Origin: a phage
Sequence record: PX502252.1
Reading direction: 5' to 3' (one strand)
DNA length: 44,418 nucleotides
Position numbers and translations under genes: made by a program. The notes beneath the pieces were generated by a model. That model made no database searches. It saw only the letters and a list, made by a program, of their open reading frames with translations, and was not told where the DNA came from. This document shows, piece by piece, positions 1 through 44,418 of the stretch. Within the stretch, counting starts at the first letter, position 1. Each line of letters opens with the position of its first letter.

Positions 1-88
1 TATCTGACTATTGCTTCGCATAATATTGATAGGCCATTCCTTCGGGAGTGGCCTTTTCTTTTACCTACTACCTGTAACATTTCATTAA
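1..88. repeat. Exact duplicate of window end (1-88 = 44331-44418); circular-permutation or assembly overlap carrying the last 23 nt of the RNAP gene and its terminator
   Basis: Direct comparison of first and last 88 bases of the window: identical. Confidence 0.9.
31..62 (+). terminator. Hairpin terminator downstream of RNA polymerase gene (copy of 44358-44389)
   Basis: AGGCCATTCC-TTCG-GGAGTGGCCT stem (9 bp, one G-U) with tetraloop, followed by TTTTCTTTT. Confidence 0.6.
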
Positions 89-97
89 CATAAACGT

Positions 98-113
98 GTC
101 TCACATGTGAGAC
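98..113. promoter_or_regulatory. 16-bp perfect palindrome GTCTCACATGTGAGAC (site 1 of 7), immediately upstream of a phage promoter
   Basis: Sequence is its own reverse complement; recurs at 281, 2649, 3757, 8492, 24999, 38880 (variants). Confidence 0.7.
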
Positions 114-115
114 TT

Positions 116-138
116 ATTTACCGGACACTATAGGAGAG
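116..138 (+). promoter_or_regulatory. SP6-type phage RNAP promoter (ATTTACCGGACACTATAGGAGAG)
   Basis: Match to SP6-family promoter core GACACTATAG with conserved upstream ATTTAC; position analogous to T7 phi1.1A. Confidence 0.7.
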
Positions 139-280
139 CCGTCGGAGACGGGAAAGAAAGGGAATATAAAGGATATAAAGGAAGTAATAGGTATTAAAGG
201 TTATATAGGATTACCTAGGAATACCTATTACCTTCTTCCTTCCTCTTATTACTAATTAGAGGAAAGGGCAGACTTAGGTT
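139..280. other. AT-rich promoter-flanked element, candidate primary origin of replication
   Basis: Lies between two phage promoters just after the RNAP gene and before a gene-1.1-like ORF (T7 primary-origin architecture); 5' hairpin CCGTCggaGACGG; inverted repeat GTAATAGGTATT / AATACCTATTAC around CCTAGG; shares TATAGGATTACCTAGG with 32218-32345. Confidence 0.45.
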
Positions 281-296
281 GTCTCACATGTGAGAC
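281..296. promoter_or_regulatory. 16-bp perfect palindrome GTCTCACATGTGAGAC (site 2)
   Basis: Exact copy of the palindrome, 5 bp upstream of promoter at 302. Confidence 0.7.
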
Positions 297-301
297 TTCG
301 T

Positions 302-324
302 ATTTACCGGACAGTATAGATAAG
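302..324 (+). promoter_or_regulatory. SP6-type phage promoter, divergent variant (ATTTACCGGACAGTATAGATAAG)
   Basis: Upstream half matches consensus; core CAGTATAGATA differs at 2 positions from CACTATAGAAG. Confidence 0.5.
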
Positions 325-349
325 ACTAACTCACTTTGGAGATTTAACT

Positions 350-478
350 ATGCGTAACTTTGAGAAGATGACCCGTAAAGCTAATCGTTTTGACATGGAA
401 GAAGGGCAGAAGAAAGGCAAGAAGCTGAACAAACCTGTCCGCGACCGTGCATCTAAACGCGCTGCGTGGGAGTTCTAA
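350..478 (+). CDS. Small basic protein (42 aa), resembles T7 gene 1.1 product
   Basis: ATG with GGAG upstream; MRNFEKMTRKANRFDMEEGQKKGKKLNKPVRDRASKRAAWEF; N-terminus and size match my recollection of T7 gp1.1; below ORF-track size cutoff. Confidence 0.6.
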   Translation: MRNFEKMTRKANRFDMEEGQKKGKKLNKPVRDRASKRAAWEF

Positions 479-481
479 GTT

Positions 482-2470
482 ATGGCTATTATTCAGAATG
501 TACCGTGTCCTGCCTGTCAAAAGAATGGACATGATGTTACCGGCAACCATCTCATGATCTTTGATGATGGTGCTGGCTATTGCAACCGTGGTCACTTCCA
601 CGATAACGGAAAGCCATACTACCATAAGCCCGAAGGTGGTATCGAGATAACCGAGTTGCCTATTACTGGCAATATCAAATATACACCTTCTCAGTTCAAA
701 GAGATGGAGAGGGAAGGGAAGATAAGCGACCCTAAGCTACGCGCCATCGCACTAGGTGGTATGCGTATGAAAGACCGTTGGGAGGTTATGAATGAGCAAG
801 AAAGGGCAGACCAAGAAGCAGAGTGGAAACTCGATGTTGAATGGTTCCTCACGCTTAAGCGTAAGAACCTTGTATCCCGACACATTCGCGGTGACATCGC
901 AGCACTATATGATGTGCGAGTGGGCCATGATGAAGATGGAAGAGTCAATCGTCACTATTATCCACGATTCGAGAAGGGTGAGCTAGTAGGCGCTAAGTGC
1001 CGTACATTACCTAAAGATTTTAAGTTTGGTCACTTAGGTAAACTCTTTGGTATGCAAGACCTTTTCGGGATGAATACTTTGTCTCACGTGTTAGACAAGG
1101 GAAGACGAAAGGATTGCTTACTTATCGTAGGCGGTGAACTTGATGCACTAGCAGCACAGCAGATGCTTCTTGATTCTGCCAAGGGTACTAAGTGGGAAGG
1201 CCAGCCTTATCATGTATGGTCTGTCAATAAGGGTGAGTCTTGCCTCGAAGAGATAGTGCAAAACCGTGAGCACATCGCCCAATTCAAGAAGATTATCTGG
1301 GGCTTCGATGGTGATGAGGTAGGGCAGAAGCAGAACCAGCAAGCGGCTCGCCTGTTCCCCGGCAAATCCTATATCCTTGAATACCCTTCTGGTTGCAAAG
1401 ATGCCAACAAGGCATTGATGGCTGGCAAGGCTAAAGAATTTGTGGATGCTTGGTTTAATGCAAAGTCATCTGATGAAGTCTTTGGTAGCCAGATTAAATC
1501 TATCGCATCTCAAAGAGATAAGCTCAAGGCTGCACGTCCAGAACAAGGGCTGTCATGGCCTTGGCCTAAGCTAAACAAGGTAACGCTGGGTATCCGTAAG
1601 AACCAGCTTATCATTATAGGTGCAGGCTCTGGTGTTGGTAAGACAGAGTTTCTCCGTGAAGTAGTTAAGCACCTCATTGAAGAACACGGTGAATCTGTAG
1701 GCATCATTTCTACAGAAGACCCGATGGTCAAGGTGTCCCGTGCTTTTATCGGCAAATGGATTGATAAGCGTATTGAGTTACCGCCGACCAACGACCCGAA
1801 AGAAGATGGATACCGTGAGGTATTCGACTATACAGAGGAAGAGGCTAATGCTGCCATTGATTATGTAGCTGATACAGGGAAGCTATTTGTGGCTGACCTA
1901 GAGGGTGATTATTCAATGGAGAAGGTAGAGCAAACTTGCCTAGAGTTTGAGGCTATGGGTATTTCTAATATCATCATTGATAACTTAACGGGGATTAAAT
2001 TAGATGAGCGTGCTTTTGGTGGGAAGGTTGGTGCACTTGATGAATGCGTCAAGCGGATTGGTACTATCAAAGACCGACACCCAGTTACTATATTCCTTGT
2101 ATCACACCTTACACGTCCTCCGGCAAACCGTACCCAACACGAAGAAGGTGGCGAGGTTATCCTTTCTGACTTCCGAGGCTCAGGAGCTATCGGATTCTGG
2201 GCATCTTACGCCTTGGGGATTGAGCGTAACACAAGAGCTGAAACGCTTGATGAAAGGACTACCACGTACATCTCATGTGTCAAAGATCGTGACCAAGGTA
2301 TCTACACAGGAACCAAAGTCATGCTTAAGGGTGACATTCAAACCGGACGTTTGAGAGAACCACAGGCTAGAACAAGGTCATTTGATACAGGTGAAGCAAG
2401 GCAACAAGAAGTACCGGATTTACCGGACACTATAGAAGAGACAACCTTTGATGATGAACAGGAGTTTTGA
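482..2470 (+). CDS. DNA primase/helicase (T7 gp4-like)
   Basis: N-terminal Cys4 zinc ribbon (CPACQ...CNRGH), helicase Walker A GAGSGVGKTEF, acidic C-terminus ending DDEQEF; 662 aa. Confidence 0.95.
   Translation: MAIIQNVPCPACQKNGHDVTGNHLMIFDDGAGYCNRGHFHDNGKPYYHKPEGGIEITELPITGNIKYTPSQFKEMEREGKISDPKLRAIALGGMRMKDRWEVMNEQERADQEAEWKLDVEWFLTLKRKNLVSRHIRGDIAALYDVRVGHDEDGRVNRHYYPRFEKGELVGAKCRTLPKDFKFGHLGKLFGMQDLFGMNTLSHVLDKGRRKDCLLIVGGELDALAAQQMLLDSAKGTKWEGQPYHVWSVNKGESCLEEIVQNREHIAQFKKIIWGFDGDEVGQKQNQQAARLFPGKSYILEYPSGCKDANKALMAGKAKEFVDAWFNAKSSDEVFGSQIKSIASQRDKLKAARPEQGLSWPWPKLNKVTLGIRKNQLIIIGAGSGVGKTEFLREVVKHLIEEHGESVGIISTEDPMVKVSRAFIGKWIDKRIELPPTNDPKEDGYREVFDYTEEEANAAIDYVADTGKLFVADLEGDYSMEKVEQTCLEFEAMGISNIIIDNLTGIKLDERAFGGKVGALDECVKRIGTIKDRHPVTIFLVSHLTRPPANRTQHEEGGEVILSDFRGSGAIGFWASYALGIERNTRAETLDERTTTYISCVKDRDQGIYTGTKVMLKGDIQTGRLREPQARTRSFDTGEARQQEVPDLPDTIEETTFDDEQEF
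2418..2440 (+). promoter_or_regulatory. SP6-type phage promoter embedded in 3' end of primase/helicase gene (ATTTACCGGACACTATAGAAGAG)
   Basis: Full consensus match; in-frame encodes LPDTIEE. Confidence 0.65.
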
Positions 2471-2631
2471 TGGAAATTATTAAACCAGTATTGAGTATCG
2501 GTATTGACATCCTATTCATGCTTATGATTGCGGACTATGCTGCACGATACGGATTCAAGAAAGCTGTGAAACTTATAGTTGCATCTGGTTTTATTATGTC
2601 AATGTTCTTTATTGTAACACGCCTTATCTAG
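2470..2631 (+). CDS. Small hydrophobic membrane protein (53 aa)
   Basis: ATG overlaps helicase TGA stop (ATGA coupling); MEIIKPVLSIGIDILFMLMIADYAARYGFKKAVKLIVASGFIMSMFFIVTRLI; two hydrophobic segments; below ORF-track cutoff. Confidence 0.45.
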   Translation: MEIIKPVLSIGIDILFMLMIADYAARYGFKKAVKLIVASGFIMSMFFIVTRLI

Positions 2632-2648
2632 TGTATTTATCAGGGCTT

Positions 2649-2664
2649 GTCTCACATGTGAGAC
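2649..2664. promoter_or_regulatory. 16-bp perfect palindrome GTCTCACATGTGAGAC (site 3)
   Basis: Exact copy; intergenic. Confidence 0.7.
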
Positions 2665-2703
2665 AGGCTCTTATTAAGTACATTAAATAACTGGAGGTTG
2701 ACT

Positions 2704-3547: not shown

Positions 3548-3746
3548 ACATAGTCTTAAAATGCTCGATGGTCATGAAGACCTGCAAGCCAAGATTACTA
3601 ACCAAGCCTTCCTGTTCGCACAGTTAACTATGGCTGAGGCCAAGAAGAATAGTCTCACTCGTGAACAGGTTATCAAGGAGGCCACTTGGGAACCACACCA
3701 AGGTAAATACATGGGCCAGAAATTAACTGTAACACGCAGTCGATAA
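3537..3746 (+). CDS. Hypothetical protein (69 aa)
   Basis: ORF overlapping previous stop by 11 nt; weak SD. Confidence 0.45.
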   Translation: MQNKHSLKMLDGHEDLQAKITNQAFLFAQLTMAEAKKNSLTREQVIKEATWEPHQGKYMGQKLTVTRSR

Positions 3747-3755
3747 GTCAAGGGT

Positions 3756-3780
3756 TGTCTCACGCGTGAGACAGCCTTTT
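3756..3780 (+). terminator. Palindrome variant TGTCTCACGCGTGAGACA followed by GCCTTTT (site 4); hairpin plus T-run
   Basis: 18-bp perfect palindrome with centre CGCG instead of ATGT, then T-tract. Confidence 0.5.
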
Positions 3781-3897
3781 ATCATATTGATTGGAGGTGC
3801 ATTATGCCACGTGATTATGATTCTGATTGGGACTACTATGACTCAATGAATCCAAAACCCGAACGTTCAAATGATTACTACGAAACAGAGGCAATGT

Positions 3898-6408
3898 ATG
3901 AAAACTATTGATTGGAAGAAGGAAGCAGAAGGGCGAATCCTAGTGATGGATGCGGAAGCTAAAGGTCTGCTTGATGCTATCCGCTATGGTCATCGTGAAG
4001 ATGTACACATCATTTGCTGCATGGACTTGCTCACCACTGAGGAGTTCCTCTTCTTCGACCCATATGAGATGCGTGACCCTGAAGCAAGGGAACACCTGAA
4101 AGAGTGGGAAGGACATCAAGATGGAACCTTAGTTGACGGTGTTAACTTCCTGAAGCACTGTGAAGCTATTGTGTCGCAGAACTTCCTAGGATATGACGGT
4201 CTTCTCTTTGAGAAAGCATTCCCTGATATCTGGAAAGGCTTTAATTATACCGAGAAGCGCGGCAAGGGCAGACTCCGTGCCGACCTGTGCCCTATCCGTG
4301 TTGTCGACACGCTGGTGATGAGTCGCCTGTTAAACCCCGATAGACGCCTTCCTCCGCAAGCATATGCCAAAGGTATGGGTAACGTCGCCCCTCACTCAAT
4401 TGAGGCGCACGGCATCCGTATAGGTCGCTATAAACCGGAGAACGAGGACTGGTCTAAACTAACTGACCACATGGTTCACCGTGTACGTGAGGACGTGGCG
4501 ATTGGTCGTGACTTGTTCCTCTGGCTCTTTAACGGGGAATGGATGGAGCACAAACGCCGTGGCGTGAACAAACGTACTGGCCTAGGGATTGAGACAGCCT
4601 TCCACATGGAGTCCATTGTGGCGCTGGAGATGAGCCGTCAGGCAGAGCGTGGATTCCGTCTGGATATTGACAAAGCACTAGCGCGATGCGAAGAACTGGA
4701 CGCTAAGATTGATGAGACAGTCGCAGCGTTCCGTCCGCACATGCCTATGCGTATCAAGTCTAAACCTTTTAAACCGGAAGAAAAGAATGAAGTATGCCAA
4801 CGCGCAAATGAGTATGGAGCTAGCAACAATATACCTACTGTCCTGGACCCCTCACACTTTCTTCATGCCGAGAGACGAGGAGATCGCAAGACAGTATGGA
4901 GTGTCACTACTAAGTCTGGTGATTGGTCGGCTAGTGTCAAGAAAGACTTTCCTCACCTTAGAGGAAACCGTAATGACACGCCAAGCATCAAGTGGATTGG
5001 CGCTTACTCGCCTGTTACTTTCGAAGAGATTCCCTTGGGTAACAGGGATGCAGTTAAGCAAGTGCTCTATGATTATGGATGGAAAGGTGTTGAATTTAAC
5101 GATACCGAGCAAGCGCATCTCGATGAGCACGGAGTGTTACCCAAACCTTGGAGTGGTAAGATAAATGAAAAGTCCCTTACTTTATGGCAAGAAAGAGCCG
5201 CACGTGAAGGTAAAACAGTCCCTGATTGGTGCTTGGGTATCGCTGCATGGTACATACTCGTATCCCGTCGTGGTCAGATACTCAACCGGGGTGACGTTGA
5301 AGCCTTCAACGAGAAGGGAACGTGGCCCTCGCAGGCTGGTGTACGAAAGTGTCGCGGCCTTGTACCTGTAGCATTCAACAAGGAGTTAGGAATCAATGCG
5401 CAGCAATACTACGAGAGGTACGGATGCTGGCCTACGTCAGACAAGGATGACGGAGAGTGGCGTGTGCCAGGCAATGCTGTTACTATTGGCACTAATACGT
5501 TCCGTATGCGTCATCGTAACATTGTTAACATTCCTTCCCGTGGGTTGTATCCTTTACGTGATTTATTCATAGCTAGCAAGGGCAAAATGATACTTGGGTG
5601 TGATGGAGCAGGTCTTGAGCTACGCATCTTAGCCCATTTTATGGGTGATCCTGAGTATATTGATATAGTCTTGAATGGTGATATTCACTCGCACAACCAA
5701 GCAAAGGCTGGATTGCCCTTACGTGACACTGCGAAAACATTTATCTACGCTTTTCTCTACGGATCTGGCATACCAAATCTTGCCGCTGTATGTGGCATGA
5801 CTGAAGCACAGATGAAAGAATGTGTTGCTCGCTTTGAAGTAGAGTTACCTCATTTAGCTAAACTTAAGGAAGGGGTGGAATCCGCTGCTTCAACATTTGG
5901 ATATATGCACGCTGTAGATGGACGCTGGGGACGTGTACGCGTTAGTAATGGTGAGATTAAGATTCACACTTGTCTTAACGTACTGCTACAGATGACTGGC
6001 TCCCTCACTATGAAGTACTCAAAAGTGAAGGCTCTCGCTACTATGCGAAAAGAAGGTGTTGCCCTTGATGAGAATGGAAACCCTGCTATGCTTGTAGATT
6101 ATCATGATGAATGGCAGATGGAAGTACCTGAAGATGAAGTCTTAGAGATTCGCTACTCTATTCCTTCTTCCGAATGGAAAGAGGAAGAGAAACGTCAATA
6201 TCGTGATAGCGAAGGGCGCATGTGGTCTGCACCCAAGATTGTGGAAGGCAATCCTAAAGATGACGAAGAGGTAACAGTACGTCGCAGGTATCATCGTGCT
6301 GGTGAAATCTTAGCTGAATCTATTACGTGGGCTGGAGAATATCTCAAGCTACGTATCCGAATGGATGGCGAATATATGCTTGGATATTCATGGGCTGAAA
6401 CACACTGA
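3898..6408 (+). CDS. DNA polymerase, family A (T7 gp5-like)
   Basis: Exo I motif ILVMDAEAKGL; motif A GCDGAGLELRILAHF; motif B RDTAKTFIYAFLYGSG; motif C YHDEWQ. Start placed at ATG 3898 (AGAGG 7 nt upstream); in-frame ATG 3871 lacks SD. Confidence 0.93.
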   Translation: MKTIDWKKEAEGRILVMDAEAKGLLDAIRYGHREDVHIICCMDLLTTEEFLFFDPYEMRDPEAREHLKEWEGHQDGTLVDGVNFLKHCEAIVSQNFLGYDGLLFEKAFPDIWKGFNYTEKRGKGRLRADLCPIRVVDTLVMSRLLNPDRRLPPQAYAKGMGNVAPHSIEAHGIRIGRYKPENEDWSKLTDHMVHRVREDVAIGRDLFLWLFNGEWMEHKRRGVNKRTGLGIETAFHMESIVALEMSRQAERGFRLDIDKALARCEELDAKIDETVAAFRPHMPMRIKSKPFKPEEKNEVCQRANEYGASNNIPTVLDPSHFLHAERRGDRKTVWSVTTKSGDWSASVKKDFPHLRGNRNDTPSIKWIGAYSPVTFEEIPLGNRDAVKQVLYDYGWKGVEFNDTEQAHLDEHGVLPKPWSGKINEKSLTLWQERAAREGKTVPDWCLGIAAWYILVSRRGQILNRGDVEAFNEKGTWPSQAGVRKCRGLVPVAFNKELGINAQQYYERYGCWPTSDKDDGEWRVPGNAVTIGTNTFRMRHRNIVNIPSRGLYPLRDLFIASKGKMILGCDGAGLELRILAHFMGDPEYIDIVLNGDIHSHNQAKAGLPLRDTAKTFIYAFLYGSGIPNLAAVCGMTEAQMKECVARFEVELPHLAKLKEGVESAASTFGYMHAVDGRWGRVRVSNGEIKIHTCLNVLLQMTGSLTMKYSKVKALATMRKEGVALDENGNPAMLVDYHDEWQMEVPEDEVLEIRYSIPSSEWKEEEKRQYRDSEGRMWSAPKIVEGNPKDDEEVTVRRRYHRAGEILAESITWAGEYLKLRIRMDGEYMLGYSWAETH

Positions 6409-6417
6409 GTTATACTA

Positions 6418-6445
6418 AAGGTCACTTACGAGTGGCCTTTATGAA
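6418..6445 (+). terminator. Hairpin downstream of DNA polymerase (AAGGTCACT-TACG-AGTGGCCTT) with weak T-tract
   Basis: 9-bp stem with tetraloop; 3' arm AGTGGCCT resembles RNAP-downstream terminator. Confidence 0.35.
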
Positions 6446-6476
6446 TAACTTACTCCCACCTATTTTGTATAACAGG

Positions 6477-6499
6477 ATTTACTGGACACTATAGAAGGA
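6477..6499 (+). promoter_or_regulatory. SP6-type phage promoter (ATTTACTGGACACTATAGAAGGA)
   Basis: Consensus match, intergenic. Confidence 0.75.
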
Positions 6500-6562
6500 A
6501 AGCCTAGGTAATCTAGTTTATAAGGTAGTATAGGTAATTAAGTAAATATAGGAGGTATAAAT

Positions 6563-16824: not shown

Positions 16825-16830
16825 TTCAGT

Positions 16831-22038: not shown

Positions 22039-24981
22039 ATGGCAATTGAACGTCAAGCTGTACAAGGTTTAGAAAGAGTACAGTCAAGGGGCGCGCCAAC
22101 ACCTATGTCTTTCACACCACGACAAGTGAGTATCTCAGGGGGCGCTGATGCCTCCGGTAGTAGATTTTTGGAAGACTTAGTAAACGCCGCAAGTAGTGTG
22201 GCTGATGTCACTACTGCTATCCTTAATCAGCAAGTAGAAGACGATAAGGTTCGCCAGATGGATAGGGCTTTGTCTGGCATGATGCCTTCTGAGGATGCCA
22301 CGGTAGGCGGTGCTCGTGCTCATATGCTGGTTAGTTTACAAAATGATGTAATCGCACAGACAACTGCGCTACAAGCAGAAGCACAGCGATTTCAAGGTAG
22401 TGACGAGGATTGGGAAAACTATGTAGTTCAATCTCGTAATGAGGTACAAAATAGATTATGGCAAAGTTATCCAGAGCTTCGTGGTGACAAAGATTCTATG
22501 AGGCTTGTCACTAACGCGTTCATGGAGCAGCAACCTAGAATTACTGCAACTAGAGCAGAGGCTAAACTTCGTCAAGAAGAAGAAGCACGAATGCAATCTA
22601 TGCAGTCTCGTATTATCATGGCTACAAGGGACGTAGCGCCAGATGCCACTGGTGCAGCTCTTATCCAGCTACAAAAAGAAGCACTGGCGATGGGTCTTAG
22701 TAAACCTGAGTTTGATCAAATGGTTGCTAAGATTGCATCTGAAAGAGCGGCAGTAGGAGATGATAGTCTTATTCAGGGAACCAAGGCATTGGTGGATGAT
22801 AAGGGTGTCTCTTTGTATGACCGTGTTGGTGCTTTGCAAACTGGAGAAATTCAAGCTAACAGAACTTGGGCTGCTCAGAATCAGGTTGCCCTCTTCGAGA
22901 AGAAAGATGCAGCTATAAAGGCATTCGATGCAGGGCAACTTACTCGCGAAGAGTTACTTCAGGTAATGCAGAATCACAATGAATTGACTGGTGGCACTGC
23001 TTGGTCTGATAGCGAGATCAAGGCTATCTTCGATAGGCAAGCTAAGGTTAATGCAGAGAAAGCAAAGCTCGAAGATCTTATTGCACGAGGTGAATCTGGG
23101 TCGCCTTTAGGCTTACAGGACATTAGTAAGGATGACAGAAAGACATATGCTGAAGCCTTAGTTAGTACCTACACTAAGCTGGCAGAAGATGAAATTGCTC
23201 GTACTGGTGCAACGGGAGAACAGGCTGAAGCTATTCGCGGTAGGTATGAGCAGATGCGTTATCTTAAATTGGGTCAACAGCTTATTGAAGACCCGATCAT
23301 TAAGGAAAGGTATTCGTCGCTTATGCAGCTATCCTCTGCCAACCTCAAGGATATGAATGTTGAACCTGAAGCACTGCAAACTATCATGCGAGCACGTGAT
23401 TCTATTCCAGAGGATGCACGTCGTGCTGTTATGGGAGACAAAGAATATGCCTTTGTTGAGAACTATGACTTAGCAACTCGCATGGGATATAACACAGGTC
23501 AAGCTATTGAGTTTGCACAGAATGCCTCTCGCGGCGAGAAATTACAAGGTTCTGTGCTCAAAGAACTTAATGATGATGTAGATGGAGTAGTTAGTGACAT
23601 TGCAGGAGGTAGCTGGCTCACTTTTGGTGATAACATGAGTGAAATGGGACGTGACATTATGATGGAGGAGGCAAGTACAATTGCTAGAGCAATGAAGGTT
23701 GCAGGCCATAATAATGACACTATTAAGCGTCACCTTAAATCCTATCTTACAAGCCAGTATACACAATTGTCAGAAGGTTTCTTTACTCAAGGTGTTCTTG
23801 TAAAAGGAGACATTCGTACATTAGGGGACACTATAGGAGTAAACCAAGGAGACGTCCCAATGGCTCTCCGTCAGTACCTAGATAATAACAAACAAGCTCT
23901 ACTAGATGCATCAGGTGGGTTAGAGGAAGGCGACCTGTATTTTGATGTAGATGCGCAGCGTGGCCTCTTTACTATACGTGCAGGCTCTGGTCGTGTGCCT
24001 GTTACACAGGCAATGCCTTTGTCTGAAATCAAAGGTCAATCCTTGCTTAAGCAACGGTATGATGCAGAGGTTAAAGCACGTGATGAAGGGCGTAAGAATT
24101 TTGAAGCACAACAAATGCGAATGTGGGGTGCAGGTGGATATCAAGCACAGCCACCTGCAAAGACTACAGCCAAAACTGTAGGCTCACGTGGTATTGCTGA
24201 CTTCTTAATGTCTCCCGCCTTTGCATCAGGTGAAAGATTGCCAGCAAACTTTGAGTTTGGCTATAAGAGGAATAATATGGACTTTTATAACTATGTGGCT
24301 AAGACTGAGAATAGCGCCAATGTAGGGTTCGACCGAGTAGCGGGAGTTTATACACCATACAAAGATGCACATGGTCAGTCTGTAGGTTATGGTCACTTCC
24401 TTACTGCTGAAGAGAAGAAGAACGGATACATTATGATTGGTACAGAGAAAGTGCCATTCACTCCGGGGCAATCTCAATTAACACCAGAACGTGCCATGCG
24501 CCTCCTACAGCAAGACTTGAAGAGCCATGTGCCAAGCACTTCAGGGTGGGCTGTTCCCTTCGAAGAGATGCACCCAGGTGTTCAGCGTGGCCTTATGGAT
24601 TTGTCCTATAACTTAGGTAAAGGAGGCATCCAGAATGCTCCTAAGGCATATGCTGCGTTTAAGGCTGGCAAGTTTACTGATGGCTTTATCGAGATGTTAT
24701 CTACTGCATCTACTGAAGGTAAACGTAGCACTGGGTTGTTGGTTCGTAGGGCAGAAGCATATAATCTTGCCCAGAGCGGAGGTGCTGTTCCTAAGATTAG
24801 TGAAGTAGAGACACGAGCAGATGGGTCCATGTATGTGAAGTTTGCAGGTCAGATGTCAGAGGCTTTCGTAAGTAAATCAATCTATAATCAGATTGGTAAG
24901 GATGGGTGGATGCAAGTGTACCCTCCAAAACAAGGTGCGCTTGCACCTAACACTCAGGTTGGTAGAATCAAACTAAGCTAG
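22039..24981 (+). CDS. Internal virion protein with C-terminal T4-lysozyme-like (GH24) muramidase domain
   Basis: 980 aa; segment E...YTPYKDAHGQSVGYGHFLT matches the E/D/T catalytic region pattern of T4 lysozyme (YKDTEGYYTIGIGHLLT). Confidence 0.8.
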   Translation: MAIERQAVQGLERVQSRGAPTPMSFTPRQVSISGGADASGSRFLEDLVNAASSVADVTTAILNQQVEDDKVRQMDRALSGMMPSEDATVGGARAHMLVSLQNDVIAQTTALQAEAQRFQGSDEDWENYVVQSRNEVQNRLWQSYPELRGDKDSMRLVTNAFMEQQPRITATRAEAKLRQEEEARMQSMQSRIIMATRDVAPDATGAALIQLQKEALAMGLSKPEFDQMVAKIASERAAVGDDSLIQGTKALVDDKGVSLYDRVGALQTGEIQANRTWAAQNQVALFEKKDAAIKAFDAGQLTREELLQVMQNHNELTGGTAWSDSEIKAIFDRQAKVNAEKAKLEDLIARGESGSPLGLQDISKDDRKTYAEALVSTYTKLAEDEIARTGATGEQAEAIRGRYEQMRYLKLGQQLIEDPIIKERYSSLMQLSSANLKDMNVEPEALQTIMRARDSIPEDARRAVMGDKEYAFVENYDLATRMGYNTGQAIEFAQNASRGEKLQGSVLKELNDDVDGVVSDIAGGSWLTFGDNMSEMGRDIMMEEASTIARAMKVAGHNNDTIKRHLKSYLTSQYTQLSEGFFTQGVLVKGDIRTLGDTIGVNQGDVPMALRQYLDNNKQALLDASGGLEEGDLYFDVDAQRGLFTIRAGSGRVPVTQAMPLSEIKGQSLLKQRYDAEVKARDEGRKNFEAQQMRMWGAGGYQAQPPAKTTAKTVGSRGIADFLMSPAFASGERLPANFEFGYKRNNMDFYNYVAKTENSANVGFDRVAGVYTPYKDAHGQSVGYGHFLTAEEKKNGYIMIGTEKVPFTPGQSQLTPERAMRLLQQDLKSHVPSTSGWAVPFEEMHPGVQRGLMDLSYNLGKGGIQNAPKAYAAFKAGKFTDGFIEMLSTASTEGKRSTGLLVRRAEAYNLAQSGGAVPKISEVETRADGSMYVKFAGQMSEAFVSKSIYNQIGKDGWMQVYPPKQGALAPNTQVGRIKLS

Positions 24982-24998
24982 TGTTATACTCAAGGTTT

Positions 24999-25014
24999 GT
25001 CTCACATGTGAGAC
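24999..25014. promoter_or_regulatory. 16-bp perfect palindrome GTCTCACATGTGAGAC (site 6), between internal virion protein genes
   Basis: Exact copy, flanked by T/A extending palindrome to 18 bp. Confidence 0.7.
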
Positions 25015-25048
25015 ATGCCTTTATGAATGACACTAACTAGGAGGTAAC

Positions 25049-32193: not shown

Positions 32194-32194
32194 T

Positions 32195-32217
32195 ATTTAC
32201 TGGACACTATAGGAGGA
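32195..32217 (+). promoter_or_regulatory. SP6-type phage promoter (ATTTACTGGACACTATAGGAGGA)
   Basis: Consensus match directly after terminase stop. Confidence 0.75.
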
Positions 32218-32345
32218 AGACCAAGAGAATAAAGGAGTATTATAGGATAATATAGGATTACCTAGGTTATATAGGTATGCCTTAGTATGGGTGTACTCCT
32301 GTACACCTATTCCTACTTACTATTTACTTATACATATAAGGAGTG
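32218..32345. other. AT-rich promoter-proximal element sharing TATAGGATTACCTAGG with region 139-280; candidate secondary origin
   Basis: 16-bp identical core and similar AT-rich TAGG-containing flanks. Confidence 0.4.
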
Positions 32346-38159: not shown

Positions 38160-38900
38160 ATCTTAGTGTTGTACAAGGAATAACCAAAGTCAAAATTTTG
38201 ATGTAGGCGTGTGTGAGGTGTCTCGCCCTCGCCCTCGCCGGGATGTCCCCATAGGGTGGCCTGAGGGAATCCGTCTCCGACGGGCAGGGCTGATGCACTC
38301 CTTGTACTAGCTTAGTAGTACACAAGGGATGACCGTACTAGTTAGCTGGTACAGCCTAGTCTTTGCTCATGTACTAGCAAGGTGGAACGCCGGAGAACGC
38401 CTAGGACGGCCTAGGGATGGCTTAGTGGTGGACAAGGTGATTGCCTTAGTGAAGCCTCTTAGTGCATTCCTGAGGCTATTCAGGGCCATTCCTGAGCGTT
38501 TGACAGGGTGGGCGTGGGTGGGCTATCTGTTCGTTTCGTCGCTGGCGCTCCTCACTTCGTTTCGCCTAGCGCTCCACTCACAAGCCTGACGTGTACCTTA
38601 GTCACTACCTTAGGTTGTTCCTTGATGGATAGCTTAGGTTAACCTTAGTGGATTGCCTTAGTTAAAGCCTTAGTGCTTCACTTAGTATCAGCTTAGTAGT
38701 GTACCTTAGTCAGTCTTAGTGTTAGACCTTAGTGACTACATAGCTACGCTATAAGATGCAAATAGGTCGCGGTCGGTAGACCGCTAATAAGAAGTAATAG
38801 TAATAAGATGCAGTAGGAGGAACACCAGAAACCTAGTCAGCCTAGCCTATCCTAGCTCTGTATCTATTGCGTTTCCTTAGTCTCACATGTTAGACAACCT
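38160..38900. repeat. Non-coding, repeat-dense genome-terminus region (GC-rich block then array of about 11 CTTAGT/CCTTAGT units); probable site of terminal repeat/concatemer junction
   Basis: CTCGCC x3, TACTAG x3, ATTCCTGAG x2, TTCGTTTCG x2, then CTTAGT repeats every 10-14 bp (38590-38750); no SD-led ORFs; analogous to T7 terminal-repeat heptamer arrays. Confidence 0.6.
38880..38895. promoter_or_regulatory. Palindrome variant GTCTCACATGTTAGAC (site 7, one mismatch)
   Basis: 15/16 match to the recurrent palindrome. Confidence 0.5.
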
Positions 38901-38962: not shown

Positions 38963-38991
38963 TTGACACAGGCAATCAACAGGTATACATT
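38963..38991 (+). promoter_or_regulatory. Candidate host sigma70 early promoter (TTGACA - 17 bp - TACATT)
   Basis: Perfect -35 hexamer, 17-bp spacer, -10 with 3/6 match; positioned at start of early region. Confidence 0.4.
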
Positions 38992-40346: not shown

Positions 40347-40460
40347 ATGGAAAAACAATACAATTTCATCTTTTCAGACGGTGTGACCTTAAAATGTTCC
40401 TTGCGATTCGCACAGATTCGCGAGGAAGTGCTAGGAACTACATACAAACTATTTAGCTGA
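40347..40460 (+). CDS. Small early protein (37 aa)
   Basis: ATG 2 nt after ocr stop, GAGGAAG upstream; 3' end overlaps phage promoter. Confidence 0.35.
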   Translation: MEKQYNFIFSDGVTLKCSLRFAQIREEVLGTTYKLFS

Positions 40461-40473
40461 CACTATAAGAGAG
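40451..40473 (+). promoter_or_regulatory. SP6-type phage promoter variant (ATTTAGCTGACACTATAAGAGAG)
   Basis: Core TGACACTATA conserved; +1 region AAGAGAG shifted by one. Confidence 0.55.
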
Positions 40474-41722: not shown

Positions 41723-44350
41723 ATGCAAGATTTACACGCTATCCAGCTTCAGCTTGAAGAGGAAATGTTTAACGGCGGTATTCGTCGCTTTGAAGCAGAC
41801 CAACAACGCCAGATTGCATCAGGTAATGAATCCGATACGGCATGGAATCGTCGCCTATTGTCGGAACTTATCGCACCTATGGCTGAAGGTATTCAGGCTT
41901 ATAAGGAAACCTACGAAGGCAAGAAAGGACGCGCACCGCGTGCACTGGCTTTCATTAACTGCGTAGAGAACGAAGTGGCAGCATATATCACGATGAAGAT
42001 CGTAATGGATATGCTTAACACTGATGTAACCTTGCAAGCCATAGCAATGAATGTAGCTGATCGCATCGAAGACCAAGTACGCTTCAGCAAGCTGGAAGGT
42101 CACGCCGCCAAATACTTTGAGAAAGTAAAGAAGTCGCTTAAGGCAAGTAAGACTAAATCATATCGCCATGCGCACAACGTAGCGGTGGTGGCTGAGAAGT
42201 CAGTAGCTGACCGTGACTCTGATTTCTCTCGCTGGGAAGCATGGCCTAAAGATACCTTGCTACAAATCGGTATGACCTTGCTAGAAATACTGGAGAATAG
42301 TGTATTCTTCAATGGTCATCCTGTTTTCCTCCGCACCTTGCGCACTAATGGTGGTAAGCATGGTGTTTACTACTTACAGACCAGTGAACATGTAGGGAAA
42401 TGGATTACAGCATTCAAAGAACATGTAGCGCAACTAAGCCCAGCGTATGCACCTTGCGTTATACCTCCACGTCCGTGGGTTTCTCCTTTTAATGGTGGAT
42501 TTCACACTGAGAAGGTGGCAAGCCGCATCCGTCTAGTTAAAGGAAACCGCGAGCACGTCCGCAAGTTAACCAAAAAGCAGATGCCAGCGGTTTACAAGGC
42601 TGTTAACGCTTTGCAGGAGACTAAATGGCAGGTTAATAAAGAAGTCTTGCAGGTAGTAGAAGACGTTATCCGTCTCGACCTTGGCTATGGTGTACCTTCA
42701 TTTAAACCACTCATCGACCGCGAGAATAAGCCAGCTAACCCAGTGCCGTTAGAATTCCAGCACTTGCGAGGCCGTGAGTTGAAAGAAATGTTAACGCCGG
42801 AACAATGGCAAGCCTTCATTAACTGGAAAGGTGAATGTACCAAGCTGTATACCGCAGAGACTAAGCGCGGCAGCAAGTCGGCGGCAACCGTTCGCATGGT
42901 AGGGCAGGCCCGTAAATACAGCCAGTTTGACGCTATTTATTTTGTATATGCACTGGATAGCCGTTCACGCGTTTATGCGCAATCTAGCACGCTCTCACCG
43001 CAATCAAACGACTTAGGCAAGGCGCTCCTACGGTTTACCGAAGGGCAGACTATAAACAGCGCTGAGGCGCTTAAGTGGTTTTTGGTGAACGGGGCGAATA
43101 ACTGGGGTTGGGATAAGAAAACCTTTGACGTGCGCACCGCTAACGTGTTGGATGGTGAATTCCAAGACATGTGCCGCGATATTGCAGCCGACCCGCTGAC
43201 CTTTACTCAATGGGTAAATGCTGATTCTCCTTACGGTTTCCTTGCATGGTGCTTTGAATACGCGCGTTATCTAGATGCGCTGGATGAAGGCACGCAAGAC
43301 CAATTCATGACGCACCTACCAGTACACCAAGATGGTAGCTGTTCCGGCATCCAGCACTACAGCGCTATGCTACGCGACGAAGTCGGTGCTAAGGCGGTAA
43401 ACCTTAAACCATCCAACGAGCCGCAAGACATTTATGGCGCGGTTGCTCAGGTTGTTATCCAGAAGAATTACGCCTACATGAATGCAGATGATGCGGAAAC
43501 TTTCACATCTGGAAGTGTAACCCTTACAGGTGCAGAACTGCGCAGCATGGCTAACGCGTGGGATATGATTGGGATCACTCGCGGCCTGACCAAGAAACCC
43601 GTTATGACCCTGCCATACGGCTCCACACGCTTAACCTGCCGTGAATCGGTGATTGATTATATCGTTGATTTGGAAGAAAAAGAGGCACAACGAGCTATCG
43701 CCGAAGGGCGGACGGCGAATCCTGTGCACCCTTTTGATAATGACCGTAAAGACTACCTGACACCGGGCGCGGCATATAACTATATGACTGCTCTCATCTG
43801 GCCTTCCATCTCTGAGGTTGTGAAAGCTCCGATAGTTGCCATGAAAATGATTCGCCAGCTTGCACGTTTCGCAGCTAAGAGGAACGAAGGATTAGAATAC
43901 CCCTTACCGACTGGCTTCATCTTGCAACAAAAGATAATGGCAACCGATATGCTTCGCGTATCCACTTGCTTGATGGGTGAAATCAAGATGAGTCTCCAGA
44001 TTGAAACAGATGTAGTTGATGAAACGGCAATGATGGGTGCGGCTGCTCCTAACTTCGTGCACGGTCATGATGCTAGCCACCTGATTCTGACTGTATGTGA
44101 CCTAGTGGATAAAGGTATTACATCCATTGCAGTCATCCATGATTCTTTCGGCACTCATGCAGGACGTACCGCAGACCTGCGGGATAGCTTAAGGGCAGAA
44201 ATGGTTAAGATGTATCAAGACCATAATGCCTTGCAAAACCTGCTGGATGTGCACGAAGAACGTTGGTTAGTAGATACCGGAATCCAAGTACCAGAGCAAG
44301 GAGAGTTTGACCTTAACGAAATCTTAGTATCTGACTATTGCTTCGCATAA
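41723..44350 (+). CDS. Single-subunit DNA-directed RNA polymerase, SP6-type
   Basis: 875 aa; N-terminus [32 protein letters not shown] and long stretches match SP6 RNAP as I recall it; motifs [14 protein letters not shown] and VHDSFGTH; cognate promoters throughout genome. Confidence 0.97.
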
Positions 44351-44357
44351 TATTGAT

Positions 44358-44389
44358 AGGCCATTCCTTCGGGAGTGGCCTTTTCTTTT
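44358..44389 (+). terminator. Hairpin terminator immediately downstream of RNAP stop
   Basis: AGGCCATTCC-TTCG-GGAGTGGCCT followed by TTTTCTTTT; same as 31-62. Confidence 0.65.
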
Positions 44390-44418
44390 ACCTACTACCT
44401 GTAACATTTCATTAACAT

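What the first reader, a model, noticed from the sequence alone, without database searches (positions are those of the whole stretch)
98..478. T7-like primary-origin architecture after the RNAP gene: two promoters flanking an AT-rich inverted-repeat element, then a gene 1.1 homologue
In T7 the primary origin lies just after gene 1 and comprises promoters phi1.1A/B plus an AT-rich region, followed by gene 1.1. Here the RNAP terminator is followed by palindrome, promoter (116-138), AT-rich segment with an inverted repeat around CCTAGG, palindrome, second promoter (302-324) and a 42-aa basic ORF beginning MRNFEKMT. A second copy of the core TATAGGATTACCTAGG sits directly downstream of the promoter at 32195, analogous to a secondary origin.
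Basis: partly seen in the sequence, partly recalled or inferred. Interest (0 to 1): 0.65.

Follow-up and report, generated by a model that had tools for sequence, protein, structure and literature searches.

The report
Promoter-hairpin control region after phage RNAP gene
This is the conserved non-coding control region between the RNA polymerase gene and the gene 1.1 homologue of a K1E/SP6-like phage; it is laid out like the corresponding T7 region, so it is the obvious candidate for the replication origin, but nothing here proves that.

Summary
The window is a circularly permuted Vectrevirus (K1E-like) genome. After the RNAP stop come these features:
- a strong terminator (31-54)
- a 16-bp dyad (98-113)
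- promoter P1 (115-133)
- a covariation-supported 5' hairpin (139-151)
- a 9-10-nt phased AGG array in AT-rich DNA (159-219)
- an inverted repeat (178-195/220-237)
- a second dyad (281-296)
- a sub-consensus promoter P2 (301-319)
- a true gp1.1 homologue (350-478; Pfam PF08200)

This layout is conserved in K1E, SP6, Klebsiella phages and two more distant contigs.

The origin reading is only partly supported:
- Position and gene order match T7.
- P1 fires into the most purine-rich stretch of the genome and one of its most AT-rich, as T7 origin promoters do.
- In T7 the two promoters flank the R1.1 RNA hairpin and the AT-rich origin segment lies after both. Here the inverted repeat occupies the R1.1 position.
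- The dyads are not origin-specific. There are 8 copies genome-wide, and three cap T7-type RNase III-like hairpins.

No test available here can show that replication starts at this site. This is an expected member of a known kind, with modest interest.

The parts
31..62 (+). Intrinsic terminator ending the early (host-RNAP) transcription unit after the phage RNAP gene.
   Evidence: 10-pair stem (6 G-C), 4-nt loop, then TTTCTTTT. Present in all relatives, with compensating stem sequences. Annotated as a terminator in phage R4596.
98..113 (+). 16-bp dyad GTCTCAC-AT-GTGAGAC, copy 1, at -35 to -20 relative to the P1 start.
   Evidence: The orthologous copy in SP6 and the Klebsiella phages reads GTCCAAC-GT-GTTGGAC, so both arms changed together.
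115..138 (+). Phage-RNAP promoter P1 (TATTTACCGGACACTATAG, predicted +1 = G133).
   Evidence: 10 genome matches against 0.01 expected. Conserved in all relatives, each with its own lineage-specific -8 to -12 bases.
139..151 (+). 5' stem-loop CCGUC-GGA-GACGG at +7 to +19 of the P1 transcript.
   Evidence: 100% of cells paired in 12 distinct sequences. The third pair occurs as GC:7, AU:4 and CG:1; 1 of 500 shuffles reaches this.
159..219 (+). Phased AGG array: AGG at 159, 170, 179, 189, 198, 207 and 217 (unit about ATATAAAGG) in AT-rich, purine-rich DNA.
   Evidence: TRF finds period 9, 5.2 copies. All 35 spacings in 7 lineages are 8-11 nt, and the first AGG falls 26-29 nt downstream of the predicted P1 start in every lineage. 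There are 7 motif hits in 70 nt against a genome mean of 0.32.
178..237 (+). AT-rich inverted repeat, a long imperfect hairpin (arms 178-195 and 220-237; the fold extends over 177-243).
   Evidence: DNA fold z = -3.15, 0 of 200 shuffles. Every lineage folds into a long hairpin here, z -3.4 to -5.8 against mononucleotide shuffles. The right arm is 99.2% identical among 11 Vectrevirus genomes.
240..264 (+). Second short hairpin (arms 240-251 and 253-264). Its sequence is present only in Vectrevirus.
   Evidence: The segment is absent from the SP6 and Klebsiella-phage rows of the alignment.
281..296 (+). 16-bp dyad, copy 2, at -38 to -23 relative to the P2 start.
   Evidence: 100% identical in 11 Vectrevirus genomes. 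Absent before P2 in contigs L023 and L024.
301..324 (+). Promoter P2 (TATTTACCGGACAGTATAG, predicted +1 = G319), sub-consensus at -5.
   Evidence: In every lineage P2 carries a non-consensus base between -5 and -1 (Vectrevirus and L023 CAGTATAG, SP6 group CACTATTG, L024 CTATGG).
338..341 (+). Shine-Dalgarno sequence GGAG of gene 1.1.
   Evidence: Read directly from the sequence. TGGAGA is invariant in all seven aligned phages.
350..478 (+). gp1.1 homologue, 42 aa, basic.
   Evidence: Pfam PF08200, 58.6 bits, E = 8e-16. 56% identity to T7 gp1.1. SP6 and R4596 records already annotate it as gp1.1 / Phage_1_1.
32194..32275 (+). Post-terminase promoter (32194-32212) with a TAGG-rich leader containing the second exact copy of TATAGGATTACCTAGG (32251-32266).
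   Evidence: The leader has no significant structure. K1E and SP6 carry related motifs at the same place.
6476..6555 (+). Post-DNA-polymerase promoter (6476-6494) with a third TAGG-rich, 70% A+T leader.
   Evidence: Unstructured. Conserved in K1E and SP6.

Best explanation
The region is the conserved early-to-middle switch and control region of SP6/K1E-like phages.

What the sequence predicts (no transcript was mapped):
- Host-polymerase transcription of the early genes ends at the terminator (31-62).
- The phage RNA polymerase then starts at P1 (+1 = G133) and at the weaker P2 (+1 = G319) to express gp1.1 and the primase-helicase.
- The P1 transcript begins with a protective 5' stem-loop.
- It then runs through a 9-10-nt phased AGG array and a long AT-rich hairpin. 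That hairpin sits where T7 has its R1.1 processing hairpin.
- The 16-bp dyads are copies of a genome-wide hairpin module that elsewhere caps RNase III-type processing sites.

What is inferred: P1 also drives a T7-style transcription-primed replication origin. Its first 80 nt are the most purine-rich stretch of the genome and are followed by one of the most AT-rich. This should favour a persistent RNA-DNA hybrid whose 3' end the phage DNA polymerase can extend.

Shown here: the anatomy, its conservation, the gp1.1 homology and the 5' hairpin. Not shown: any replication start.
For: Identity and gene order:
- The window is a Vectrevirus genome.
- The order RNAP, terminator, two promoters, gp1.1, primase-helicase mirrors T7 gene 1, phi1.1A, phi1.1B, gene 1.1.
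- T7 replication starts at phi1.1A/phi1.1B, and every T7 origin needs a T7 promoter (PMC8373140).

Conservation:
- The layout is kept in K1E, R4596, SP6, BP12B, two Klebsiella phages and IMG/VR contigs whose RNAP C-terminal segment (282 aa) is as little as 74% identical.
- The non-coding region is 96.2% identical among 11 Vectrevirus genomes, against 73-77% at third codon positions of the flanking genes.

Composition:
- The first 80 nt downstream of the P1 start are 75% purine, in the top 0.01% of windows. Positions 163-242 are 71% A+T, in the top 0.17%.
- In the T7 control, the stretches after phi1.1B and phiOL are in the top 0.4% and 0.15% for A+T.

Structure:
- The 5' hairpin shows compensatory changes.
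- A long hairpin is predicted between P1 and P2 in all 10 lineages.
- The + strand folds better than the - strand in 8 of the 9 lineages scored, with 30 G-U pairs against 10.
Against: - No experiment or computation here shows where replication starts.
- The arrangement differs from T7. The AT-rich segment lies between the promoters, not after both, and P2 is only 31 nt from the start codon.
- There is no DNA similarity to the T7 origin.
- The SP6 primase site 5'-GCA-3' (PMC5737085) occurs once or not at all between P1 and gp1.1, against about 4.7 expected.
- Other intergenic regions are equally conserved against K1E, so conservation is not origin-specific.
- Promoters plus leader hairpins are fully explained by gene expression alone.
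- Alignment-based covariation for the long hairpin is weak: 3 of 16 pairs, consensus energy -8.5 kcal/mol.
Confidence: 0.5

Rival explanations
1. The region controls expression only. It is the first middle-class transcription start, with a structured mRNA leader. The long hairpin is an RNA processing or stability element, the functional counterpart of T7 R1.1. The dyads are RNA hairpins that protect the 3' ends of upstream transcripts. Replication starts elsewhere, or at many promoters without preference.
For: - The T7 inter-promoter segment folds into the R1.1 hairpin, so promoter-hairpin-promoter-gene 1.1 is the shared pattern.
- The + strand folds better than the - strand, with G-U pairs in excess.
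- The 5' stem-loop has compensatory changes, and 5' stem-loops can also be read just after the starts of the promoters at 16830 and 34545.
- The dyad forms the apex of hairpins at 2630-2680, 3738-3790 and 24980-25035. Their flanks, CUCAAGG...GCCUUUAUGA, match the motif found at T7 883, 1461, 5880, 13885 and 18556. From memory of Dunn & Studier 1983, those are the R0.3, R0.5, R1.1, R4.7 and R6.5 sites.
Against: - The AT-rich hairpin lacks the CUCAAGG...GCCUUUAUGA consensus that marks the clear RNase III-like sites of this genome.
- This reading does not explain the strict 9-10-nt AGG phasing, the extreme purine bias, or why two tandem promoters are kept in every lineage although P2 is always degenerate.
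- In T7 the same locus serves both expression and origin functions, so this rival is not exclusive of the origin reading.
Confidence: 0.35
2. The region acts at the DNA level through protein binding. The 16-bp dyads and/or the phased AGG units are recognition sites for a sequence-specific protein, probably phage-encoded. That protein would regulate P1 and P2, or load replication proteins as at iteron-type origins.
For: - All copies in a genome share the lineage-specific arms: GTCTCAC/GTGAGAC in Vectrevirus and GTC(C/T)AAC/GTTGGAC in the SP6 group, at orthologous sites.
- Copies persist inside coding sequence, in the primase gene (window 1081) and, in relatives, the RNAP gene.
- AGG units repeat on one helical face and recur after three promoters.
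Against: - Distance from dyad to promoter start varies: the dyad's 3' end lies 20, 23 and 33 nt upstream of +1.
- The dyad spacer varies in sequence, and in L023 in length (3 nt), which suits a hairpin loop better than a dimer site.
- The common SP6 form GTCTAAC..GTTGGAC is a T-G mismatch as DNA but a G-U pair as + strand RNA.
- Dyad 2 is missing in L023 and L024.
- No candidate binding protein was identified.
- T7-type replication needs no initiator protein (established knowledge).
Confidence: 0.12
3. The similarities are chance or assembly artefact and have no function.
For: The window does carry a 91-bp assembly overlap at its ends.
Against: - All motif counts far exceed shuffled expectation.
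- The region is conserved in more than 100 phage records.
- It evolves like first and second codon positions.
Confidence: 0.01

Closest known systems
T7 primary replication origin (promoters phi1.1A and phi1.1B plus the AT-rich segment, between gene 1 and gene 1.1)
   Same: - Same genomic position: directly after the RNAP gene and directly before a gene 1.1 homologue.
- Two tandem rightward phage promoters.
- An unusually AT-rich stretch downstream of a promoter.
   Different: - In T7 the AT-rich segment follows both promoters (5930-6006). Here it lies between them, and P2 is 31 nt from the ATG.
- There is no DNA sequence similarity.
- The promoter starts are 186 nt apart, against 75 in T7.
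- A terminator, two dyads and a phased AGG array are present here and not in the T7 stretch read.
- Origin activity is proven for T7 and untested here.
T7 RNase III processing site R1.1 (hairpin between phi1.1A and phi1.1B)
   Same: A stable hairpin fills the interval between the two promoters upstream of gene 1.1. The + strand bias of G-U pairs suggests an RNA-level structure.
   Different: - The window hairpin is longer and AT-rich.
- It lacks the CUCAAGG...GCCUUUAUGA consensus that T7 R-sites and four other hairpins of this genome share.
- Cleavage is untested.
T7 secondary origins (phiOL, phiOR, phi6.5: promoter plus AT-rich DNA)
   Same: The promoter at 32194 lies just after the terminase large-subunit gene, as phiOR does in T7. 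It is followed by a TAGG-rich leader sharing a 16-nt core with the P1 leader. The promoter at 6476 has a 70% A+T leader.
   Different: The 32212 leader is only in the top 7% for A+T. These leaders are also ordinary 5' UTRs of the next genes. There are no functional data.
R-loop-primed origins (ColE1 RNA II type): works like, not a member
   Same: A promoter fires into a purine- and G-rich transcript region expected to form a stable RNA-DNA hybrid (GC skew +0.65, 75% purine).
   Different: There is no homology. ColE1 depends on host RNAP, RNase H and Pol I. The comparison here is inference from composition only.

Membership tests
T7-type transcription-primed primary origin | Lies between the phage RNAP gene and gene 1.1. 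| tested here: met
   The RNAP ORF ends at 44350 (= window position 23). gp1.1 (PF08200) lies at 350-478. T7 layout.
T7-type transcription-primed primary origin | One or two phage-RNAP promoters pointing rightward. | tested here: met
   P1 and P2 match the genome's promoter consensus (10 sites against 0.01 expected). P2 is sub-consensus. No transcription data.
T7-type transcription-primed primary origin | AT-rich segment immediately downstream of the promoter(s), where the RNA-to-DNA switch occurs. | tested here: inconclusive
   Met for P1: 163-242 is 71% A+T, top 0.17%. Not met for P2, which is 31 nt from the ATG. In T7 the segment follows both promoters.
T7-type transcription-primed primary origin | Primase recognition site(s) on the displaced strand. 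| tested here: inconclusive
   The SP6 primase site is 5'-GCA-3' (PMC5737085). There is one GCA at +136 in Vectrevirus (+116 in SP6) and none in BP12B or L020-L024 between P1 and gp1.1.
T7-type transcription-primed primary origin | DNA synthesis initiates there in vivo or in vitro. | not testable with these tools
   Needs marker-frequency, nascent-strand or reconstituted assays. GC skew is uninformative even for T7.
T7-type transcription-primed primary origin | Sequence homology to the T7 origin DNA. | tested here: not met
   A distant blastn of 24-349 finds only Molineuxvirinae, plus one short match (52 bases, covering the terminator region) to a 2,759-bp record filed under Lederbergvirus Sf6. 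No Studiervirinae.
T7-type RNase III processing site | Intergenic hairpin of about 20 bp interrupted by an internal loop. | tested here: met
   The fold of 133-318 gives 5+12 pairs, an internal loop and 4 pairs. All lineages form a long hairpin.
T7-type RNase III processing site | Conserved flanks CUCAAGG ... GCCUUUAUGA around the upper stem. | tested here: not met
   Absent from 177-243. Present at 6408-6450 and 24980-25035, and in degenerate form at 2630-2680 and 3738-3790.
T7-type RNase III processing site | Cleavage by host RNase III. | not testable with these tools
   Needs an in vitro cleavage assay or a comparison of rnc+ and rnc- transcriptomes.
Phage_1_1 (gp1.1) protein family | Match to Pfam PF08200 above the gathering score. 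| tested here: met
   58.6 bits against 21, covering 1-41 of 42 aa. 56% identity to T7 gp1.1.

The most novel reading that the evidence does not exclude
The phased AGG arrays that follow three phage promoters (P1, 6476, 32194) would be dedicated initiation or loading elements defining a fixed set of transcription-primed origins in SP6-like phages. The genome-wide 16-bp dyad, whose arms change together in every copy between lineages and which persists even inside the primase and RNAP coding sequences, would be the target of an as yet unidentified phage-specific nucleic-acid-binding factor. That factor would couple transcript processing, promoter use and origin firing.
Probability: 0.1. Interest if true: 0.6.

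Novelty: new member of a known kind. Interest (0 to 1): 0.3.

Why it matters
If P1 and its AT-rich leader are the origin, T7's promoter-driven initiation scheme would extend to the SP6/K1E subfamily. That subfamily is widely used for phage therapy and supplies the SP6 polymerase. It would also give a compact, orthogonal origin module for SP6-type replication systems, comparable to the T7 ori plasmids of PMC8373140.

The side findings give concrete handles for studying RNA processing and possible new regulators in these phages. These are a lineage-covarying dyad family that caps RNase III-like sites, and strictly phased AGG arrays after three promoters.

As it stands the locus is what a T7 specialist would expect to find at this position.

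Tried and rejected
- **Cumulative GC skew:** it rises monotonically in T7, SP6 and K1E and does not mark even the proven T7 origin. Rejected as evidence.
- **Non-coding conservation as an origin signature:** the region is 96% identical among Vectrevirus genomes, against 73-77% at third codon positions. Other intergenic regions are just as conserved against K1E, and this one is among the least conserved against SP6. It is therefore not specific.
- **Rfam:** only sub-threshold microRNA-hairpin noise.
- **Sigma-70 promoters in 1-600:** none.
- **ORFs in 96-330:** no ORF of 25 aa or more lies within it on either strand, so the short 'hypothetical proteins' annotated here in some records are unlikely to be genes.
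- **Primase sites:** GCA is depleted and not conserved.
- **Alignment-based covariation of the long hairpin:** weak, because the pairing register shifts between lineages. Only per-lineage folding supports it.
- **Structure in the other two TAGG leaders:** none.
- **Literature:** six searches of the held library found nothing on an SP6-group origin or on the dyad sequence. The 2004 SP6 genome paper (Dobbins et al.) was looked up by DOI and by a PMC number recalled from memory and is not held. The SP6/K1-5 comparison paper (Scholl et al.) was not looked up. Prior mention there cannot be excluded.

Full report
**What the window is**

A megablast of the first 3 kb finds 107 phage records, nearly all Vectrevirus (K1E-like, Autographiviridae, Molineuxvirinae), at 92-93% identity. 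The last 91 bases of the window repeat the first 91. The window is therefore a circularly permuted complete genome, and the 'gene end' at 1-23 is the end of the 875-aa RNAP ORF at 41723-44350. K1E position 1 maps to about window 38221.

**Checking the observation**

| Element | Coordinates | Evidence |
|---|---|---|
| Intrinsic terminator | stem 31-54, then TTTCTTTT | |
| Perfect 16-bp dyad GTCTCACATGTGAGAC | 98-113 and 281-296 | |
| Promoter P1 TATTTACCGGACACTATAG | 115-133 | |
| Promoter P2 TATTTACCGGACAGTATAG | 301-319 | |
| AT-rich inverted repeat | arms 178-195 / 220-237, 16 of 18 complementary | |
| 42-aa basic ORF | 350-478 | |

- P1 and P2 are two of ten matches to the promoter pattern, against 0.01 expected.
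- Between them, positions 163-242 are 71% A+T, in the top 0.17% of 80-nt windows.
- The ORF matches Pfam PF08200 (Phage_1_1) at 58.6 bits against a cutoff of 21. It is 56% identical to T7 gp1.1.
- The SP6 and R4596 GenBank records already name this ORF gp1.1 / Phage_1_1.
- TATAGGATTACCTAGG recurs exactly once, at 32251-32266. That is 40-55 nt downstream of the start of the promoter at 32194-32212.
- No ORF of 25 aa or more lies within 96-330 on either strand, and no sigma-70-like promoter was found.

**Finer anatomy**

- The P1 transcript would start at G133, by analogy with SP6 promoters (my knowledge of SP6 promoters; no start site was mapped here).
- At +7 to +19 lies CCGUC-GGA-GACGG. In 12 distinct sequences all cells pair, and the third pair occurs as G-C (7), A-U (4) and C-G (1). 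Only 1 of 500 shuffles reaches this, and every slid register fails. This is a real stem-loop. 5' stem-loops can also be read just after the starts of the promoters at 16830 and 34545.
- An array of AGG triplets follows at 159, 170, 179, 189, 198, 207 and 217.
  - TRF reports period 9 and 5.2 copies.
  - In seven lineages all 35 spacings are 8-11 nt, and the first AGG falls 26-29 nt downstream of the predicted P1 start.
- The first 80 nt downstream of the P1 start are 75% purine, the most purine-rich stretch of the genome (top 0.01%). GC skew over the first 90 nt is +0.65.
- The array's 3' half pairs with a pyrimidine-rich right arm to give a long hairpin.
  - RNA fold.
  - DNA fold z = -3.15, with 0 of 200 shuffles as stable.

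**Conservation**

The layout is terminator, dyad, P1, 5' hairpin, AGG array and hairpin, (dyad), P2, RBS, gp1.1.

- It is present in K1E, R4596, SP6, BP12B and two Klebsiella phages. It is also present in IMG/VR contigs whose RNAP C-terminal segment (282 aa) is 82-83% identical (L020-L022), and, without the second dyad, in L023 (76%) and L024 (74%).
- Each lineage uses its own promoter specificity bases.
- P2 carries a non-consensus base between -5 and -1 in every lineage.
- Every lineage folds into a long hairpin between P1 and P2 (z -3.4 to -5.8), although the paired sequences differ.
- An alignment-based test is weak because the pairing register shifts: 3 of 16 pairs are compensatory, with consensus energy -8.5 kcal/mol.
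- The + strand folds better than the - strand in 8 of the 9 lineages scored, with 30 G-U pairs against 10. This leans towards a structure in the + sense RNA, or in the displaced + DNA strand.
- Among 11 Vectrevirus genomes the non-coding region is 96.2% identical, while third codon positions of the flanking RNAP and primase genes are 73-77% identical.
- That level of conservation is typical of intergenic regions in these genomes, so it shows function but not which function.

**The dyads are not origin-specific**

- The 16-mer occurs 8 times, against 0.19 expected: at 98, 281, 1081, 2649, 3757, 8492, 24999 and 38880.
- K1E has the same eight sites.
- SP6 has copies at the orthologous sites, but with arms GTC(C/T)AAC / GTTGGAC. 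Both arms changed together, in all copies.
- The copies at 2649, 3757 and 24999 form the apex of longer hairpins with a lower stem and an internal loop.
  - The site at 24999 carries the full flanks CUCAAGG...GCCUUUAUGA.
  - The sites at 2649 and 3757 carry degenerate versions.
  - A dyad-less hairpin with the 3' motif lies at 6408-6450.
- The same motif hits T7 at 883, 1461, 5880, 13885 and 18556. From my memory of Dunn & Studier 1983, these are the RNase III sites R0.3, R0.5, R1.1, R4.7 and R6.5. I did not check those positions against a source.
- The dyad is therefore a hairpin module of RNase III-type processing signals.
- The copies just upstream of P1, P2 and the 8522 promoter lack the lower stem, and they lie at variable distance from the start site.
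- Several features favour a hairpin over a dimer-binding DNA site:
  - The spacer between the arms varies in sequence.
  - In L023 the spacer is 3 nt long.
  - The common SP6 form has a T-G mismatch, which is a G-U pair in + strand RNA.
- The concerted change of all copies remains unexplained. So do the copies inside the primase gene and, in some lineages, the RNAP gene.

**Comparison with T7**

- In T7, gene 1 ends at 5822, phi1.1A starts at 5848, phi1.1B at 5923 and gene 1.1 at 6007.
- The 75 nt between the two T7 promoter starts fold into the R1.1 hairpin.
- The AT-rich origin segment lies after phi1.1B.
- T7 replication starts at phi1.1A/phi1.1B, secondary origins such as phiOR and phi6.5 exist, and every T7 origin needs a T7 promoter (PMC8373140).
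- In the window, by contrast, the inverted repeat sits at the R1.1 position and P2 is 31 nt from the ATG.
- As a control, I asked whether composition marks the known T7 origins. The 80 nt after phi1.1B and phiOL are in the top 0.4% and 0.15% for A+T, and phiOR is in the top 2%.
- By the same measure, P1 (+30 to +110) is in the top 0.17%, the 6476 promoter in the top 0.4% and the 32194 promoter in the top 7%.
- The composition argument thus favours P1 and, unexpectedly, the promoter after the DNA polymerase gene.
- The 32194 promoter lies just after the terminase large-subunit gene, as phiOR does in T7.
- All three leaders carry TAGG-rich repeats. The two outside the finding are unstructured.

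**What speaks against or fails to support an origin**

- There is no DNA similarity to T7.
- GC skew is uninformative even in T7.
- The SP6 primase recognition site 5'-GCA-3' (PMC5737085) occurs once (Vectrevirus, SP6) or not at all (BP12B, L020-L024) between P1 and gp1.1, against about 4.7 expected.
- Every element can be explained by transcription and RNA processing alone.
- No paper in the held library addresses an SP6-group origin or the dyad. The 2004 SP6 genome paper was not held under the identifiers I tried.

**Verdict**

- The locus is the conserved early/middle boundary control region of SP6-like phages and the positional homologue of the T7 gene 1 - gene 1.1 interval.
- I judge it about 50% likely that P1 with its purine-rich, AT-rich leader also serves as the main transcription-primed origin.
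- I give about 35% to an expression and RNA-processing role only.
- I give about 12% to a role for DNA-binding factors at the dyads or AGG units.
- It is a new member of a known kind, and interest is modest.
- The dyad family and the phased AGG arrays are the parts most worth an experiment.

Noticed in passing
window 1-91 and 44328-44418: The two ends of the window are identical (a 91-bp overlap). The window is a circularly permuted assembly of a genome of about 44.3 kb. The physical left end, by comparison with K1E, is near 38221.
   Followed up: partly
window 98, 281, 1081, 2649, 3757, 8492, 24999, 38880; SP6 (L028) 493, 6093, 6264, 7071, 8547, 9383, 14255, 17752, 30569: A genome-wide family of a 16-bp dyad at orthologous sites in Vectrevirus and SP6. 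All copies of a genome share lineage-specific arms (GTCTCAC/GTGAGAC against GTCYAAC/GTTGGAC). What keeps the copies uniform is unexplained. No paper in the held library contains the sequence.
   Followed up: partly
window 1081-1096 (primase-helicase codons about 200-205); L018 and L024 position 1137 (RNAP gene): Dyad copies lie inside coding sequence, encoding S-(H/N)-V-L-D. They are perfect 16/16 in the Klebsiella-phage lineages (L020, L021). The nucleotide motif appears to be kept within two unrelated genes.
   Followed up: no
window 2630-2680, 3738-3790, 6408-6450, 24980-25035: Intergenic hairpins with a lower stem, internal loop and upper stem, immediately upstream of ribosome-binding sites. 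Two (6408-6450 and 24980-25035) carry the GCCUUUAUGA motif shared with T7 RNase III sites, and the other two carry degenerate versions. All four are likely RNase III processing sites.
   Followed up: partly
window 6476-6555 and 32194-32275: Two further promoters are followed by TAGG-rich, AT-rich leaders resembling the P1 array. The related motifs are conserved in K1E and SP6. Their function is unknown.
   Followed up: partly
window 38590-38740: A dense array of CCTTAG / CTTAGT short repeats next to the inferred genome left end, followed by a dyad copy (38880) and a TTGACA-type host promoter near 38963. It is reminiscent of the short repeats beside the T7 terminal repeats (from memory).
   Followed up: no
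window 115, 301, 2417 versus 6476, 7244, 8522, 16830, 32194, 34545: The first three promoters downstream of the RNAP gene (P1, P2 and the one at 2417) read ACCGG where most others read ACTGG, suggesting two promoter classes. In K1E the post-terminase promoter also has ACCGG.
   Followed up: no
window 350-478: Third codon positions of gp1.1 are 92% identical among 11 Vectrevirus genomes, against 73-77% in the neighbouring genes. This hints at nucleotide-level constraint extending into the ORF.
   Followed up: no
window 478-482; K1E (L001) 1978-2196; UAB_Phi78 (L019) about 2660: Gene content after P2 varies. K1E has an extra gene 8.5 between gp1.1 and the primase gene, which the window lacks. 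In UAB_Phi78 a different ORF follows P2 and no gp1.1 was found within the fetched 1.5 kb.
   Followed up: no
window 40450-40468: A promoter-like site with 3 mismatches (TATTTAGCTGACACTATAA) lies in the early region upstream of the RNAP gene. It may be a weak promoter or a chance match.
   Followed up: no
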